The notes beneath the pieces were generated by a model that was given only the letters and a program-made list of their open reading frames with translations, did no database searches and was not told the DNA's origin. A program made the translations under genes and the position numbers. A stretch of DNA of 64,000 nucleotides from Eledone cirrhosa (taxonomy: Eukaryota), in NCBI GenBank assembly GCA_964016885.1, contig OZ024740.1, positions 161,324,001-161,388,000 on the forward strand, written 5' to 3'. Positions within the stretch are counted from its first letter, which is position 1; each line of letters opens with the position of its first letter. Below, in pieces: positions 19,499-61,168 of this stretch.

Positions 19499-19879
19499 CA
19501 TATATACATATATATAGATATATATATATATATGTATATATATATATTCAGGAACTGATTATACAGAGCTGTAGAAATGGGTTGCGACGTCAGTAATGCC
19601 AAACTGTATCGGCCATTACCTTTCCTTTGAACATCATCGATGGCGTGGAGAGAGTAGACTTGCATGCATAAGTGACTGCTAGTCTTCCACAAATACACCT
19701 TCCTTTTGTGCATCGGAGAGGAACTTTCCGGTGCAAAACCATAACCATTTGTGACCGAAGGGAGCCTACGATACACACACACCAACACTGGTCCAATCCA
19801 CCATTACATGCGTCCCTAGAATCGACAGCAACAAAGCTCTCACTCTCAACGGATCGATTTTTCTCTTTCACCTATTACC

Positions 19880-24337: not shown

Positions 24338-24405
<68 letters not shown>

Positions 24406-24535
24406 GTGAGGGTTTTTTACAAATTGAAAATTAACCGAGGTGTCCTACACGAGTGAAAGTATAAAGAAAAAGAGATGAAATCGAAAATGCAACTGGAGTC
24501 TTATTTTTTTTTTAAATATATATATTTATTTGGTT

Positions 24536-24573
24536 CCTTTACCGGTTTCGCAGTTCTTCTGCTTTTCAAAATG
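24536..24573 (-). ncRNA. Minimal type I HHR in the inverted pLTR
   Basis: Reverse complement of 27455-27492 with one stem I change. Confidence 0.75.
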
Positions 24574-24946
24574 TGAGTTGAGATGGAGGATCTGTGGTTT
24601 TTCTCACATCTGATTGGTCTCTGAATGTTACTTGTTTTATAGGGAAAAAGTGGCTCGAAATGCCAGGTTTTTCGAGAAGTAATTTTATTGGTTTGTCAAT
24701 AATTATAATAAATTTCGCGCCAGTTCGCGTTACAATAGTTCTTCAAATAAGAGGGGGGTTGTCACAGGTTGTTTTTTCATATATGAGTGTTTGAATTTCT
24801 TTTTACTTGAAAAAAGGGCTCACGAAGGCTTTTTTTTGGTTGGTTATAAATGAAATTATGGCTGTCACGTGAACAAGTTTTCATTAAATTTTTGTGCCCT
24901 TATTTGGAAATCCATTCTGTAGCCTTTTTAGAGAATTTTATGATAA

Positions 24947-25855
24947 GTGAAAGATAATGGTCAAGAGAAATGGATGAGAGAAACTGACATACACTACAAA
25001 CCAACAGATTCCAAACAATATCTGCTATTCACCTCCAACCATCCAAAGCACACGAAGACGAACATTCCTTTTAACCTAGCAAGAAGAATTTGCACAATTG
25101 TCTCCAATTATGAAACGCGAAATAAAAGACTCCAAGAATTAAAGGAAATTCTACTCGAGAGAGAGTACCCACTATTACTAATAAATAATGGAATAGAAAG
25201 GGCTAAAGCAATAGGCATTGATGAATTACGGAAACAGAAACAAATTCAAGGTACGTCCAATATTCTATCATATATCTCAACACACAACCCAAGAAATGTG
25301 GAAGCTTACAACACTATTCACAAGAACATCCCACTACTAAAACAAAACCCAAGAATGAAAAAAGCCCTTGAAACACACAAAATAATCAAAAGCAAAAGAC
25401 AACCAAAATCACTGAAAACATTACTCACCAATGCCAAATTACCTACCACAAACCCACAACCAAGTATCAAAAAATGTGGTCGCTCTAATTTTGGAACCTG
25501 CACTCACCTCATTGAAGGCAACACGTATACATTTAAATCAAGACAAAATTTTACTGTAAAAAATCACTTCACTTGCTCATCAAAAAATCTACTTGATGCC
25601 ATTAAATGTAAAGGATGCAATGAAGATTATATAGGACAAACTAAACTCACACTCAGAAACAGAATGACAGTTCATCGCCAACCACGAGACAGATACCACT
25701 AAGTGCATATCTAGACGTTTGCGCAAGTAATAAGACACCCAAATTCCAAGTCTTCTCATTTTACCTTTGCGCTAACAAAACAACAGAACAAATACGAATA
25801 AATAAGGAAAATATGTTTATTCAAAAATATAGACCAGCATTAAATATGGTTTAAT
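24947..25855 (+). pseudogene. PLE RT thumb + GIY-YIG endonuclease (5'-truncated, frameshift near 25685)
   Basis: TDIHYKPTDSKQYL..HPKH..IPFNLARRI; CSSKNLLDAIKCKGCNEDYIGQT..LRNRMTVHR. Confidence 0.88.
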
Positions 25856-26328
25856 ATACATTATGTCAACACCATAATATGACATACACACACACACATA
25901 ACACCTTCTACTTTAGAAAATAAAAATCCGAACTAAATAAACCTTAACATACGTTTGCACTGACAATACAACAGAACAAATACGAATAAGTAGGGAAAAT
26001 ATGTTCATTCAAAAATATTCCTACTAAAGGAATCATTTTCCTACACACACACACACAATATATATATATATATATATTCTCTTCATCTTAACATGCTAAC
26101 CATACTCCCACACACATAACACCCATACACACACATAACAACCCCCACACCCACAACTCCCTCCCCCATTCCTACTAATAGAACCACTTTCCTACACACA
26201 TATATACACACACACAAAATATATATTCTCTCCATCTTAACATACTCGCACACACACACATAACACCCATATACATACGCACACAACTCCCTCCCCCATT
26301 TCTACTAATAGAATCATCTTCCAATACA

Positions 26329-26403
<75 letters not shown>

Positions 26404-26879
26404 GCACACAAATAAACATACATATCTTTACTTCAATAGAAAATCTGAACTCTGACACCCCAGCGAACTAACCATATTCACTGAACCAGAATAATTCTCC
26501 CAATCCCATTTCTCTTGACCACTATCTTTCCCTTGTCATAACATTCTCTATAAAGGCTACAGAATAGATTTCCAAATAAGGGCGCGTAAATGTAATGAAA
26601 ACTTGTTCACCTGACAGCCAAATTTCATTTATAACCAATCAAATCATGTTTATTTTAAAAAAAGCCTTCGTGAGCCACCTTTTTTTTAAGTAAAGAAATT
26701 CAAACACACACACAGCACACACACACGCACACACAAGCACACAAATAAACATACATATCTTTACTTTCTTTATTCAATAGAAAATTTGAATTCTGACACC
26801 CCAGCGAACTAACCATATTCACTGAACCAGATCAATTCTCCCATCCCTTTCTCTTGACCATTATCTTTCACTTATCATA

Positions 26880-27067
26880 GGGTGGTGGATTGGCAGTATT
26901 GGTAGAGGGTCGGGCGCCATGCCTTGACGCATAGAGTTACGGCCCTTGCTATTCTGAGTTCAAATCCCGCCGAGGTTAACTTTGCCTTTCATCCTTACGG
27001 GGTTGATAAAATAAAGTACCAGTAATGCACTGGGATAATTGCTGGCCTTGTGCCAAAAGTAGAAACA
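26880..27067 (+). mobile_element. tRNA-derived SINE (family A) with 20-bp TSD, inserted in a PLE pLTR
   Basis: A-box-like TGGCAGTATTGG, B-box GAGTTCAAATCC; body GCCTTTCATCCTTACGGGGTTGATAAAATAAAGTACC; TSD ATTATCTTTCACTTATCATA at 26860-26879 and 27068-27087. Confidence 0.92.
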
Positions 27068-27454
27068 ATTATCTTTCACTTATCATAAAATTCTCTAAAA
27101 AGGCTACAGAATGGATTTCCAAATAAGGGCACAAAAATTTAATGAAAACTTGTTCACGTGACAGCCATAATTTCATTTATAACCAACCAAAAAAAAGCCT
27201 TCGTGAGCCCCTTTTTTCAAGTAAAAAGAAATTCAAACACTCATATATGAAAAAACAACCTGTGACAACCCCCCCTCTTATTTGAAGAACTATTGTAACG
27301 CGAACTGGCGCGAAATTTATTATAATTATTGACCAACCAATCAAATTACTTCTCGAAAAACCTGGCATTTCGAGCCACTTTTTCCATATAAAACAAGTAA
27401 CATTCAGAGACCAACCAGATGTGAGAAAAACCACAGACCCTCCATCTCAACTCA

Positions 27455-27492
27455 CCTTTTGAAAAGCAGAAGAACTGCGAAACCGGTAAAGG
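27455..27492 (+). ncRNA. Minimal type I HHR with U3-A8 core and palindromic stem III
   Basis: CCTT-TTGAAAA-GCAG aagaa CTGC-GAAA-CCGG-TA-AAGG. Confidence 0.82.
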
Positions 27493-27568
27493 AACCAAAT
27501 AAATATATATATTTTTTAAAAAAATAAGACTCCAGTTGCATTTTCGATTTCATCTCTTTTTCTCTCTC

Positions 27569-35707: not shown

Positions 35708-36235
35708 GTCCACCCAGGATTCATTTTCATTTCAGCACATAATTTACAGGGACTAACGCAAGTCTATGACTCGGTTAATATTATGATATTTTGCTCCTTA
35801 TAACATCTTTCCTCTCTCTGTTTAGTTGAGCACTTTTCTTTGAGTGGTTTCGGGCTGCCATTTCTAGCCGCTCGTCCCACAAATACCGCTGGTTCACGGT
35901 ATTCCGCACGAGCTCACTTCTCTATACCGCGTGTTGCAAGGCGGTTATCTTAAATATTCTTAGAGTATCTGGAATATATCCGATTTACGCACGCTGATGC
36001 ATTTCCATTTCAGTCACTAATTTTTTGGAGAAACGAATCACTTTGGATTTGTACGTGTGTGATATATATTTATAGAGGTGGGTTTTCATTCATATGTTTA
36101 ATTATTGTGTCTACCTCACCTTCCGTAGTTTATAGATTCCATTCCTGTTAATTAATAGCACACACACACACACTCTCTCTCTCTCTCTCTCTCTAGTGTG
36201 TTATCCTTTCTACATATTGTATATATATATATATA

Positions 36236-37370
36236 TATAAACGAAAAACTTAATTACATACACAAGAACTCATGCCACCCTTCTACTGTTTTTAGAAACT
36301 TCGTAAATAATATCAATACTAGAATCTCTAACCTCTCCTCTGATAAGATTATCTTTGACAGAGCGGCACCCTACTATAACACGGCGTTAGCTAACAGCGG
36401 TTTCTCGCAACCAATTACTTACTCCACCACTAACACAAACAGGAACAAGAAAAGAAATCGTAACAATAGCCGAACTATCTGGTTCTCTCCTCCCTTCTCA
36501 CTCAACGTTAAAACTATTGTAGGAAAAGAATTTTTAACCCTCTTAGATAGACACTTTCCCATGGGTCACAAATACTGCTCCATCTTTAACAGACACAGTA
36601 AAACTAGGGTACTCCTGCGCTAAGAATATGAAGGCCCACATAACCAACAGTCCTAAGAGGGGCACCCCACCAGGATGCTCTTGCCGAAAGCATGAAGCTT
36701 GTCCATTCACAGCAATGCAGCACACCCGCTGTAGTTCATGAAGCTGTGGTCACTTCCAACCGACCAAATCTAACACAGGACGTCAAATCCTATGTGGGTA
36801 TGGCGGAGGGCCGATTTAAGGAACGCTTCCTGAAACATCAATTGACCTTTAGGTACCCGGCCAAACGATCATCCACGAAGCTCGCGAGACACGTATGGTC
36901 CTTCAAAGACTCAGGTATAGTCTACTCCATTCAATGGAAAGCTATCACTAAGTCCAAGCCATACGCAAGGGCAATCCGTCTTGTGGGCTGTGTATTCAAG
37001 GAAGGATAAATATTCTAAGGAGATTACGCAATAGCGATTGCCTAAATTTAAGAAATAAAATCTTCTCGCGTTGACCACATGTCTGGAAACACCTCTTGCA
37101 TAACTACAAAGCTCCGGATTGAATAACAACAACATTCTAAACTTCTAATCAACTCGAACATTTTATTCCAGAGATTCGTAGTTATCTCCCTTACACATTT
37201 CGTCCGTGGTTTTGCATCACTTTGGTGAAGTGACCGTTTCTGCGGTTGCGCGTTCATAGGGTTGTAATTCCTGTTCCGTATAACCATGACCAAACCGAGC
37301 TGAAGATCCGCCTCAGGTGAAACAATTGTCCTCAGTATGGTGAAGTAACTGTTGTGTCACTACTTCTATA
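36236..37370 (+). mobile_element. 5'-truncated Penelope-like element with HHR pLTR, in (TA)n
   Basis: YIHKNSCHP..RISNLSS..APYYNTAL..IWFSPPFS..FLTLLDRHFP..KY..IFN; VVHEA..YVGMAEGRFKERFLKH (GIY-YIG). Confidence 0.88.
37297..37333 (+). ncRNA. Minimal type I HHR (palindromic CAATTG stem III; weak stem II)
   Basis: GAG-CTGAAGA-tccgcctcaggt-GAAA-CAATTG-TC-CTC. Confidence 0.7.
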
Positions 37371-37496: not shown

Positions 37497-37552
<56 letters not shown>

Positions 37553-37994
37553 AGCGAACCTTCAGCCGTCTAGGTTGTTTTTCTACGTGTATGTCGACAT
37601 TTATAAAACAATTTTTGTATTTTATCTGATGTAAGGACACCAAAACAGCCTTGGTTGCCCTTGAAATATATATAATAAAAATAATTATGGTTTTGTAAAT
37701 ATAGTTTCCATTTTTTATTAATATATTGTATATATTAATAAAAACATTTTTTATTAATATATTTATTAATATTATCAATAGCATAAGGTCTTCAAAATGC
37801 TTGTAATTAAGCATATAGTGTATTGCAAAATACACTATATATACATTCATATATATATCGCTATTTCAGAGCACCAATTCTAATTTTCAATTTCTACTTG
37901 ACCGGAAACCGCTCTGAATAATCAGTTCCTAATTATTACTATAATTTTATAAGAATCAAACATTCATGATTTTCAGCAAGCCGGCGGAGTACTT

Positions 37995-38039
37995 AGCTTT
38001 GATAAGCATCAAAAAGTGCGAAACAGAGCTCTGTCAGCT
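37995..38039 (+). ncRNA. Type I HHR (U3-A8 core) of retrozyme unit 1
   Basis: AGCT-TTGATAA-GCAT caaaaa GTGC-GAAA-CAGAGCTCTG-TC-AGCT. Confidence 0.82.
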
Positions 38040-38311
38040 TTATCTCCCCTGTTTGCTGAAAATTAGTAAGTGAGACTGTCACTACTCTAAAACAATAGCG
38101 TAAGGTCTTCGAAATGCTTTTAATTAAGCATACAGTGTATTGCAAAATACACTATATATACATTCATATATATATCGCTATTTCAGAGCACCAATTCTAA
38201 TTTTCAATTTCTGCTTGACCGGCAACGGCTCTGAATAATCAGTTCCTGATTCTTACTATAATTCTATAAGAATCAAACATTCATGATTTTCAGCAAACAG
38301 GCGGAGTACTT

Positions 38312-38356
38312 AGCTTTGATAAACGTCAAAAAGTGAGAAACGGAGATCTGTCAGCT
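38312..38356 (+). ncRNA. Type I HHR of retrozyme unit 2 (stem II degraded)
   Basis: AGCT-TTGATAA-acgtcaaaaagtga-GAAA-CGGAGATCTG-TC-AGCT. Confidence 0.7.
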
Positions 38357-38522
38357 TTATCTCCCCTGTTTGCTGAAAATTAATAATTAATGTAAGTGAG
38401 ACTGTCACTACTCTAAAACAATAGCGTAAGGTCTTCGAAATGCTTGTAATTAAGCATATAATGTATTGCAAAATACACTATATATACATTCATATATATA
38501 TCGTTATTTCAGAGCACCAATC

Positions 38523-38580
<58 letters not shown>

Positions 38581-49663: not shown

Positions 49664-49803
49664 GATGTGAGAAAAACCACAAACCCTCCATCTCAATTCT
49701 ACTTTTGAAAAGCAGAAGAACTGCGAAACCGGTAAAGGAACCAAATAAATATATATTTAAAAAAAAAAAGACTCCAGTTGCATTTTCGATTTCATCTTTT
49801 TTC

Positions 49804-49808
<5 letters not shown>
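49664..49808 (+). mobile_element. Solo pLTR end of the 24.5-27.6 kb PLE family, with HHR at 49701-49738, in (TA)n
   Basis: Matches ~27418-27565. Confidence 0.88.
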
Positions 49809-49866
<58 letters not shown>

Positions 49867-60097: not shown

Positions 60098-60867
60098 TAC
60101 CAGCAGCAGTACCCAGCGTTGCCTGGGTAGGTAAAATACTATCTGCTTTGATGAAAAGGTGTTGATCTTAGCAACTGCTTCTTGATGACTCATCTATGGC
60201 CACACACAGGCCATGGGGGAGGGTGGTGATGACCTCTATCACTGAGAAACGCAGGTGACTGACGAAGGGGCATGCTGGGGGAGGGAGGTAATGACCTCTA
60301 ACACTAAGCCAAATTTCCTCACGCTACTTGATTGGAAATCGATGAATTCTCAAATACACAACTAAAAGCTCAGACGACGTCATTAGCCTTTGACCATGTA
60401 TAAGATGTGCAATGATAGGTTCTATCGTAGTATGAAAGTTGAACCAAATAAATTGATTTATGTGTGAGGTGGAGCCGAAGTTTCGAATTTGAACGAAATC
60501 GGTTGAAAAATGTGGGAGCTAATGATAGGTCGCAGTCCCTGAACAAAAAATGCAAAGTGTAAAGCTACTATAAGATGTGCAAAGATAGGTTCTATCGTAG
60601 TATAAAAGTTGAACCAAATAAATTGATTTATGTGTGAAGTGGAGCCGAAGTTTCAAATTTGAACGAAATCGGTTGAACAATGTGGGAGCTAGAGCCAAAA
60701 AGGCGGAAATTTGAGCGAAAAGGTAGTATTTTCGAACATTTAAGCGGCAGCCACACCGTTCCTGAACAAAAAATCAAAAATGTAAAGCCACTTTCATACA
60801 TCAAATAATTTGATGTAGTGTAAAATTTGAACAAAGTAGGTTGATTAGTGTGCAAAGTAGGTTGATT
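60098..60867 (+). mobile_element. Possible non-autonomous Helitron-like/MITE element with internal 170-bp duplication
   Basis: Starts TAC(C)AGCAGCAGTACCCAGCGTTGCCTGGGTA (subterminal hairpin); 60399-60520 recurs at 60569-60690. Confidence 0.4.
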
Positions 60868-61132
60868 ACCGGCAACCACTCTGTATAATCAGTTCCTGAT
60901 TATTACTGGAATTCTATAAGAATCCAACATTCATAATTTTCAACAAACAAAGGGAGTACTAACCTCTGAGGAATACCAACAGTATGAAACAGAGATCTGT
61001 CAGCTAATCTCCCTTTGTTTGTTGAAAAAAAAGAAGTAAGTGACATAGTCACTACTTTAAAACAATAGCGTAAGGTGTTCAAAATGCTTTTAATTCAGCA
61101 TACGATGAATTACCAAATACACTATATATACA

Positions 61133-61140
<8 letters not shown>
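60868..61140 (+). mobile_element. Diverged partial monomer of the retrozyme family, with canonical HHR at 60962-61005
   Basis: Colinear with ~37901-38170; ACCT-CTGAGGA-ATAC caaca GTAT-GAAA-CAGAGATCTG-TC-AGCT. Confidence 0.82.

Positions 61141-61168
<28 letters not shown>

What the first reader, a model, noticed from the sequence alone, without database searches (positions are those of the whole stretch)
60868..61140. Second retrozyme copy gives covariation evidence for the RNA structure
Compared with the 37.8-38.5 kb units, paired positions change together. Core U3-A8 (TTGATAA) becomes C3-G8 (CTGAGGA). Stem II GCAT/GTGC becomes ATAC/GTAT. The extended helix becomes a perfect 20-bp TTTTCAACAAACAAAGGGAG / CTCCCTTTGTTTGTTGAAAA, with CAGC/GCTG changed to CAAC/GTTG. 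This points to selection on RNA folding during replication, with distinct subfamilies, rather than neutral satellite DNA.
Basis: seen in the sequence. Interest (0 to 1): 0.75.

Follow-up and report, generated by a model that had tools for sequence, protein, structure and literature searches.

The report
Retrozyme family with co-varying hammerhead ribozyme
This is a damaged, shortened copy of a 318-base non-coding repeat found at thousands of places in this animal genome, whose subfamilies change paired bases together in a hammerhead (self-cutting RNA) fold, which marks it as a likely Penelope-mobilised retrozyme, a known kind of jumping RNA.

Summary
The copy (60868-61145) is a 278-base, 5'-truncated piece of a 317-319-base unit with a type I hammerhead; 2,280 hammerhead motifs match in the genome. 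Seven subfamilies differ by 11 double-sided Watson-Crick swaps over 32 pairs (null mean 0.4-1.1, maximum 7 in 200,000). Recurrent variants keep pairs (34 of 54), private ones break them (128 of 171). The U3-A8/C3-G8 swap is published. Corrections: this copy's own stem I is broken, it has one ribozyme and is a dead end; the 'perfect' helix is a minority variant; the three swaps are separate events; some broken ribozymes also amplified. Copies end at two fixed sites 26 bases apart, sit in (TA)n, and 36 of 39 head-to-head pairs use one end of each kind: the Penelope-like 'tail' signature. Seven loci join both arms at the predicted cleavage site. Helix III stays palindromic through substitutions and a deletion, suggesting dimer cleavage. 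No RNA data, no partner element identified. The scan found the same architecture before in other families of this genome. New member of a known kind.

The parts
60868..61145 (+). 5'-truncated copy (278 of 318 bases) of the retrozyme unit, subfamily C1; one hammerhead; 3' end at site A
60937..60956 (+). 5' arm of the extended helix I
   Evidence: pairs with 61009-61028
60961..60965 (+). helix I, 5' strand; C60963 is a private change from family G (C-C mismatch)
60966..60972 (+). hammerhead core C3-U4-G5-A6-N7-G8-A9
60973..60985 (+). helix II ATAC/GTAT with 5-base loop
60986..61001 (+). GAAA, near-palindromic helix III (60990-60999) and U16.1-C17; predicted cleavage after 61001
   Evidence: site inferred from the hammerhead consensus
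61002..61028 (+). helix I 3' strand and 3' arm of the extended helix; A61006 is private
61039..61053 (+). small downstream hairpin; one pair swaps U-A to C-G in subfamily V
61123..61166 (.). 3' end site A merging into the (TA)n target
37776..38527 (+). 2.3-unit head-to-tail copy, subfamily U1; two hammerheads (cores 37999, 38316; predicted cuts after 38035 and 38352, 317 bases apart); second helix II damaged; 3' end at site B, then (TA)n

Best explanation
The sequence is a dead-end genomic copy of a non-coding 318-base repeat whose subfamilies conserve a type I hammerhead fold by compensatory changes, and which likely spreads as a non-LTR retrozyme reverse-transcribed in trans by a Penelope-like element. 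Shown: the fold's pairs co-vary between subfamilies; copies are dispersed, 5'-truncated, often two-armed, end at two fixed sites 142 and 168 bases past the predicted cleavage site, and lie in (TA)n. Inferred: (1) copies with two or more intact units are transcribed; (2) the hammerheads cut, probably helped by pairing of two palindromic helices III, releasing a unit-length RNA that a host ligase would circularise; a rod-like alternative fold that hides the core would keep monomers and circles from recutting; (3) a Penelope-like RT/GIY-YIG protein nicks both strands of a TA-rich target and starts cDNA at site A from one nick and site B from the other, running round the circle or along an uncut multimer; (4) the two cDNAs join by microhomology, giving head-to-head arms, or one arm alone as here. 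Source lineages must keep the fold, so their changes are compensated; inserted copies then decay without constraint.
For: 11 double-sided swaps over 32 pairs between 7 subfamily majorities, in the 3-8 core pair, helices I, II (3), III (2), the extended helix (3) and the downstream hairpin; null mean 0.44-1.08, maximum 7 in 200,000 draws. Pair counts on 57 copies: 96.3% of cells paired vs 91.7 +/- 0.3 shuffled and 28-47% slid; 114 cells changed on both sides vs 32 +/- 4. Within subfamilies, variants in 2 or more places keep the pair in 34 of 54 cases, private ones in 43 of 171 (p 9e-7; 9 of 13 at 3 or more places, p 0.002; 5 of 8 at 4 or more, p 0.03). G-U outnumbers A-C 27:6 among recurrent variants vs 38:34 among private ones (p 0.005), from both A-U (14:3) and G-C (13:3) pairs, which points to the hammerhead strand. 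In the one long tandem array, 3 of 17 units are intact vs 29 of 42 dispersed U1 units, and breaks are shared between array units. 3' ends: 58 at A, 56 at B, 13 other of 127 arms; 36 of 39 head-to-head pairs are A+B (p 4e-8), matching the two RT start sites and one-sided 'tail' of Penelope-like elements (PMC11167929, PMC3846280, PMC8557442). 79 of 100 arms that reach position +60 run on through the cleavage site, up to 750 bases. Seven family loci join both arms at or within a few bases of the cleavage site, 5 through a perfect AGCT; the control site gave no perfect joint in 13 matches.
Against: No cleavage assay and no RNA evidence was obtained. The number of pairs with a double change (11) is reached by 99 of 500 shuffles and the count of extra pair types by 403 of 500; that alignment was drawn from copies with intact motifs (57 of 91 spans found), which inflates pairing. 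Pair-breaking variants also amplified: helix III CACAG/CATAG forms and an extra A between positions 11.1 and 12 recur among the first 100 of 2,280 matches; an A-C mismatch in the V extended helix is in 9 places, a C-A in C1 helix III in 4; part of C3 has U-U at the base of helix II. Only 96 of 182 units pass the intact test. The G-U excess is not significant when 3 or more places are required (6:3). 5' ends show no clear excess just after the cleavage site in the unbiased sample (11 of 90 in that bin, other bins 3-25%). No autonomous partner was found: no shared upstream ORF in the loci searched and only 13-base matches to the two ORF-bearing families compared. Published tests found hammerhead cleavage unnecessary for insertion in vitro (PMC11167929) and absent in 8 of 9 frog dimers (10.64898/2026.07.22.740005).
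Confidence: 0.82

Rival explanations
1. The unit is only the terminal repeat (pLTR) of an autonomous Penelope-like element; the copies are its 5'-truncated insertions and the fold is selected in the full element.
For: Same ends, inversions and targets as the ORF-bearing families in this window; frog retrozymes are homologous to pLTRs (10.64898/2026.07.22.740005); U3-A8 was first seen in PLE hammerheads (PMC4209133).
Against: Upstream of the unit lies the unit itself, head to tail, in arms up to 750 bases; tblastn of window PLE fragments against 160 loci found no ORF joined upstream in the same place in several loci. An origin from a pLTR remains likely; current identity with one is not supported.
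Confidence: 0.08
2. The fold is selected for something other than cutting (RT/EN binding, RNA stability); the ribozyme is a dispensable passenger.
For: Lineages with probable catalytic defects amplified; most arms read through the cleavage site; the predicted lowest-energy fold hides the core in 5 of 6 sense strands; in-vitro insertion by an anole PLE did not need cleavage (PMC11167929).
Against: The 3-8 pair, a catalytic-core pair outside any helix, swaps on both sides, and the other core bases are the same in all 7 majorities; seven loci have arms starting at the cleavage site; the alternative fold co-varies less and is mismatched in the C subfamilies.
Confidence: 0.07
3. The paired changes come from DNA-level processes (template switching in inverted repeats, satellite homogenisation) or from A-to-I editing scars, without selection on RNA.
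For: The 20-bp arms and helix III are inverted repeats; there is a sense-strand A>G over T>C bias (119:69, p 0.005) with a recurrent hot spot in the 5' arm.
Against: The 3-8 pair and 4-bp helix II are too short for template switching; G-U intermediates arise from G-C pairs too (13:3), which editing cannot make; the family is dispersed, and the one array, where DNA-level copying dominates, spreads broken ribozymes (that array is also older, 6.8% vs 2.0% from the majority).
Confidence: 0.03

Closest known systems
Metazoan non-LTR retrozymes (Cervera and de la Pena 2020, PMC7229834, passages read; Li, Clavereau and Pollet 2026, 10.64898/2026.07.22.740005, parts 1-3 of 5 read)
   Same: Type I hammerhead in a non-coding, low-GC (36%) unit of 317-319 bases; thousands of copies; monomers, dimers and a multimer; several ribozyme variants per genome.
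   Different: Mostly dispersed 0.3-2.4-unit insertions with fixed 3' ends and inverted arms, not long arrays; helix I extended to about 20 bp; 8-10-base palindromic helix III; expression and circles not shown here.
Penelope-like element pLTR hammerheads (Cervera and de la Pena 2014, PMC4209133, passages read)
   Same: U3-A8 versus C3-G8 covariation, palindromic helix III, families 'full of covariations', opposite-strand pairs of motifs 100-700 bp apart.
   Different: No ORF; helix II is 4 bp, not 7-8; helix III is long; the unit is head-to-tail with itself.
EN+ Penelope-like elements (PMC11167929, PMC3846280, PMC8557442, passages read)
   Same: 5' truncation, head-to-head inverted arm, a short tail on one end only, two RT start sites, (TA)n targets.
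   Different: Tail is 26 bases (30-40 in the papers); element is non-autonomous; the partner clade is not identified.

Membership tests
Type I hammerhead ribozyme | Conserved core (C/U3 UGA N G/A8 A, GAAA, UH) with helix I open | tested here: met
   All 7 subfamily majorities; 96 of 182 units fully intact. Rfam gathering scan of the window gave no match.
Type I hammerhead ribozyme | Helices I-III supported by covariation | tested here: met
   This copy itself has a C-C mismatch in helix I.
Type I hammerhead ribozyme | Self-cleavage 3' of H17 | not testable with these tools
   Indirect only: 7 loci with arms starting at the site.
Metazoan non-LTR retrozyme | Type I hammerhead in head-to-tail units of 150-450 bases, low GC, no coding capacity, no LTR/PBS/PPT layout | tested here: met
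   Unit 317-319 bases; no ORF of 150 aa or more over it; architecture of 160 loci. PBS and PPT were not searched for as motifs.
Metazoan non-LTR retrozyme | [quoted passage not shown] | tested here: met
   Met by some family loci, e.g. L059, L080, L118; not met by this copy, and the second 38-kb ribozyme is damaged.
Metazoan non-LTR retrozyme | Expressed as linear and circular unit-length RNA | not testable with these tools
   No RNA run was available to lay.
Metazoan non-LTR retrozyme | Target-site duplication longer than 4 bp, when present | not tested
   Ends merge into (TA)n or (ATT)n.
Penelope-mobilised element | 5' truncation, inverted 5' arm, tail on one end, TA-rich target | tested here: met
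Penelope-mobilised element | Homology to the pLTR of an autonomous element | tested here: inconclusive
   Three other hammerhead families from the window compared; best matches 13 bases; one shares the 7-base B end. Other families in the genome not examined.
Autonomous Penelope-like element | RT and GIY-YIG ORF between pLTRs | tested here: not met
Satellite DNA | Long tandem arrays spread by DNA-level copying | tested here: not met
   72 dispersed clusters in 79 Mb against one long array.

The most novel reading that the evidence does not exclude
The genomic copies are a fossil record of the whole retrozyme cycle: a hammerhead selected to cut as a dimer (helix III stays self-complementary through two swaps and a symmetric deletion) and to switch off as a rod, RNA that was cut in the living animal (arms starting at the cleavage site), and a Penelope enzyme dimer whose two RTs must use different start sites (36 of 39 A+B pairs), a rule that the in-vitro system could test directly.
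Probability: 0.4. Interest if true: 0.68.

Novelty: new member of a known kind. Interest (0 to 1): 0.42.

Why it matters
Whether the hammerheads of animal retrozymes and Penelope-like elements are needed for transposition is open: published assays found them dispensable or mostly inactive. This family gives phylogenetic evidence that the catalytic core and all helices are under selection in the lineages that spread, a ready-made set of natural variants (U3-A8 vs C3-G8, three palindromic helices III, amplified defective forms) for cleavage assays, and a count-based prediction for Penelope integration (one start site per target strand). The class, the U3-A8 swap and the one-sided tail are already in print, so it is confirmation with a testable edge, not a new system.

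Tried and rejected
Rfam gathering scan of the window: no match. Excess of 5' ends just after the cleavage site in the unbiased sample: not clear. Partner search: the ORF-bearing family at 36159-37365 has its own hammerhead and a different, roughly 60-base tail; an apparent shared motif with the window copy faded in the other copies. The young family at 24381-27563 shares U3-A8 and the 7-base B end only. Pfam gave nothing on four PLE fragments, so clade names rest on motifs read by eye and recalled. A Penelope-type intron inside the unit (donor-like GTAAGT about 35 bases, acceptor-like TTTCAG about 152 bases after the cut) was noted but could not be tested. A-to-I editing as the sole source of G-U pairs was rejected; in the extended helix alone the A>G bias is not significant. 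Folding energy as a strand test was rejected (reverse strand folds better). The helix III inner-pair swap is not unique proof of dimers: the alternative fold also explains part of it (pair 32-67 A-U to G-C in 4 copies). R-scape was not available. Lunse et al. 2017 on dimeric PLE hammerheads is recalled only; it did not appear in the listing. Supplements of the cited papers were not opened and may list this family.

Full report
What was checked. The stretch 60937-61028 reads as a type I hammerhead: extended helix I, core CTGAGGA at 60966, 4-bp helix II, GAAA, a 10-base near-palindromic helix III and TC, with predicted cleavage after 61001. It is 81-82% identical to the two units at 37.8-38.5 kb and 93-95% identical to its 40 best genomic relatives. 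Rfam's gathering thresholds miss it.

The family. The window lies in a 3.0-Gb animal genome. Exact patterns give 957 hammerheads with helix III fixed, 2,280 with it free and 3,239 matches to a 3' motif, each with 0 for the reversed pattern; subfamily V mostly escapes these patterns, so they are lower bounds. From 217 hits, 172 non-redundant ribozyme-spanning units were aligned and 30 V units added. Setting aside 17 units of one long array and 3 unplaced intermediates leaves 182 units in 7 subfamilies (C1 48, C2 9, C3 4, U1 42, U2 26, U4 23, V 30). C1, U1 and V were enriched by best-hit searches, so these are not genome proportions.

Covariation. Between subfamily majorities, 11 of 32 pairs swap on both sides and stay Watson-Crick: the 3-8 core pair; helix II pairs 10.1 (C1), 10.2 (U1, U4) and 10.4 (U4); one helix I pair (V); two helix III pairs (U4); three extended-helix pairs (C1/C3, V twice); one pair of the downstream hairpin (V). 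Four changes give G-U and two break a pair. Dealing the same 28 substitutions at random over the paired sites, branch by branch, gives 0.44-1.08 double swaps on average and never more than 7 in 200,000 draws (branch counts were set by hand from the majorities, and the extended helix and hairpin were defined from the sequences). The pair-counting tool on 57 copies agrees for cells paired, cells changed and covariation score (0 of 500 shuffles) but not for the two measures that count pairs or types (99 and 403 of 500). Within subfamilies, recurrent variants keep the pair in 34 of 54 cases and private ones in 43 of 171 (p 9e-7, weaker at stricter thresholds), and recurrent variants favour G-U over A-C, from A-U and G-C pairs alike. 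In the long array at C1:82.39 Mb, 3 of 17 units are intact and 5 of 6 shared changes break a pair, against 29 of 42 intact and 6 of 6 shared changes pair-keeping in dispersed U1 (the array is also older). Against a strict constraint: mismatched helix III forms, an extra base before G12, and an A-C mismatch in V all recur at many places.

Helix III and an alternative fold. Helix III is self-complementary in U1/U2, in two U4 forms and, after a 2-base shortening, in V; the C form and one V form carry a central purine tandem mismatch. Predicted hairpins are 0 to -1.8 kcal/mol, self-duplexes -9 to -24 for these forms. The innermost swapped pair would close a 2-base loop in a monomer, which favours the dimer fold described for such ribozymes (PMC4209133, PMC7229834). 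But the lowest-energy fold of 5 of 6 sense strands pairs helix I's 5' strand and the core with helix III, and that fold explains part of the U4 change. Dimer cleavage and an off-state rod are inferences.

How it moves. In a sample taken by the 3' motif alone (first 100 matches, C1 3.3-82.4 Mb, array excluded), 127 arms in 72 clusters end 142 (58) or 168 (56) bases after the cleavage site, 13 elsewhere, and run into (TA)n or (ATT)n; 5' ends are scattered. Of 48 head-to-head junctions, 40 have both ends classed: 37 are A+B (36 of 39 after merging a duplicate; p 4e-8). Two adjacent RT start sites producing a 'tail' were shown in vitro for an anole Penelope-like element (PMC11167929, passages), and a tail on only one inverted arm is described qualitatively (PMC3846280, PMC8557442, passages). 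Of 100 arms reaching +60, 79 continue through the cleavage site, up to 750 bases, so the template was a circle or an uncut multimer. A genome-wide search for arms joined at the cleavage site gave 9 places, 7 in the family, 5 with a perfect joint; the same search at the other AGCT of helix I gave 13 places, none perfect, 1 of the 6 fetched in the family (the control covers U types only and 7 matches were not inspected). This fits occasional use of a cut linear RNA. No ORF is attached and no partner was identified.

Comparison with what is known. It works like, and meets the testable features of, a metazoan non-LTR retrozyme (PMC7229834), a class proposed to depend on Penelope-like elements (10.64898/2026.07.22.740005, parts 1-3 of 5). 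U3-A8 for C3-G8 and families full of covariations are in PMC4209133. Five literature searches listed no paper on this family, and the passages read gave no count of A+B pairing; supplements were not opened. Earlier notes of this scan describe the same two-armed layout for other, 310-600-base hammerhead families of this genome; none matched this sequence. I reached the layout before reading them and took from them the editing test and the partner comparison.

Verdict. Observation confirmed, interpretation supported with refinements, new member of a known kind; interest 0.42.

Noticed in passing
window 24381-27563 and 49664-49809: A young (96-97% identical copies) Penelope-like family with a C-x4-C-x2-C linker and GIY-YIG domain (Neptune-like, recalled), a U3-A8 hammerhead, and in the window a two-armed insertion with the tail on one arm; its long end is TTCTAAT then (TA)n, the same 7 bases as the retrozyme's B end.
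   Followed up: partly
window 36159-37365: Broken RT-thumb and GIY-YIG remnant of a second Penelope-like family (Hydra-like by eye) with its own hammerhead at 37301 (U-U at the base of helix II) and two 3' ends about 60 bases apart.
   Followed up: partly
window 37550-37770: A further, degenerate hammerhead (long helix II, TATATA helix III) of another repeat family between (TA)n and the 38-kb retrozyme; also seen beside L006.
   Followed up: no
L154/L155 (G000:C1 about 82,390,400-82,395,900): Tandem array of about 17 units of this family in which broken ribozymes have been copied between units.
   Followed up: partly
listing, e.g. G000:C1:3352654, 47998767, 70680761: A U4 sub-lineage with an extra A between helix II and G12, at 5 places (6 matches) among the first 100 matches; either an amplified defective ribozyme or an unusual core variant.
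   Followed up: no
window 61037-61042 and the unit's +152 region (e.g. 38500-38512): Donor-like GTAAGT and acceptor-like TTTCAG could bound a roughly 117-base intron such as Penelope pLTRs carry; end site A would lie inside it and site B just after it.
   Followed up: no
all 182 units: Sense-strand A>G changes exceed T>C (119:69, p 0.005), with a hot spot in the 5' arm of the extended helix; possible A-to-I editing scars.
   Followed up: partly
window 19544-19572 (minus strand): A 25-29-base fragment of the unit next to a TA run.
   Followed up: no
window 60330-60867: Unrelated repeat with a roughly 170-base internal duplication directly 5' of the copy; not identified.
   Followed up: no
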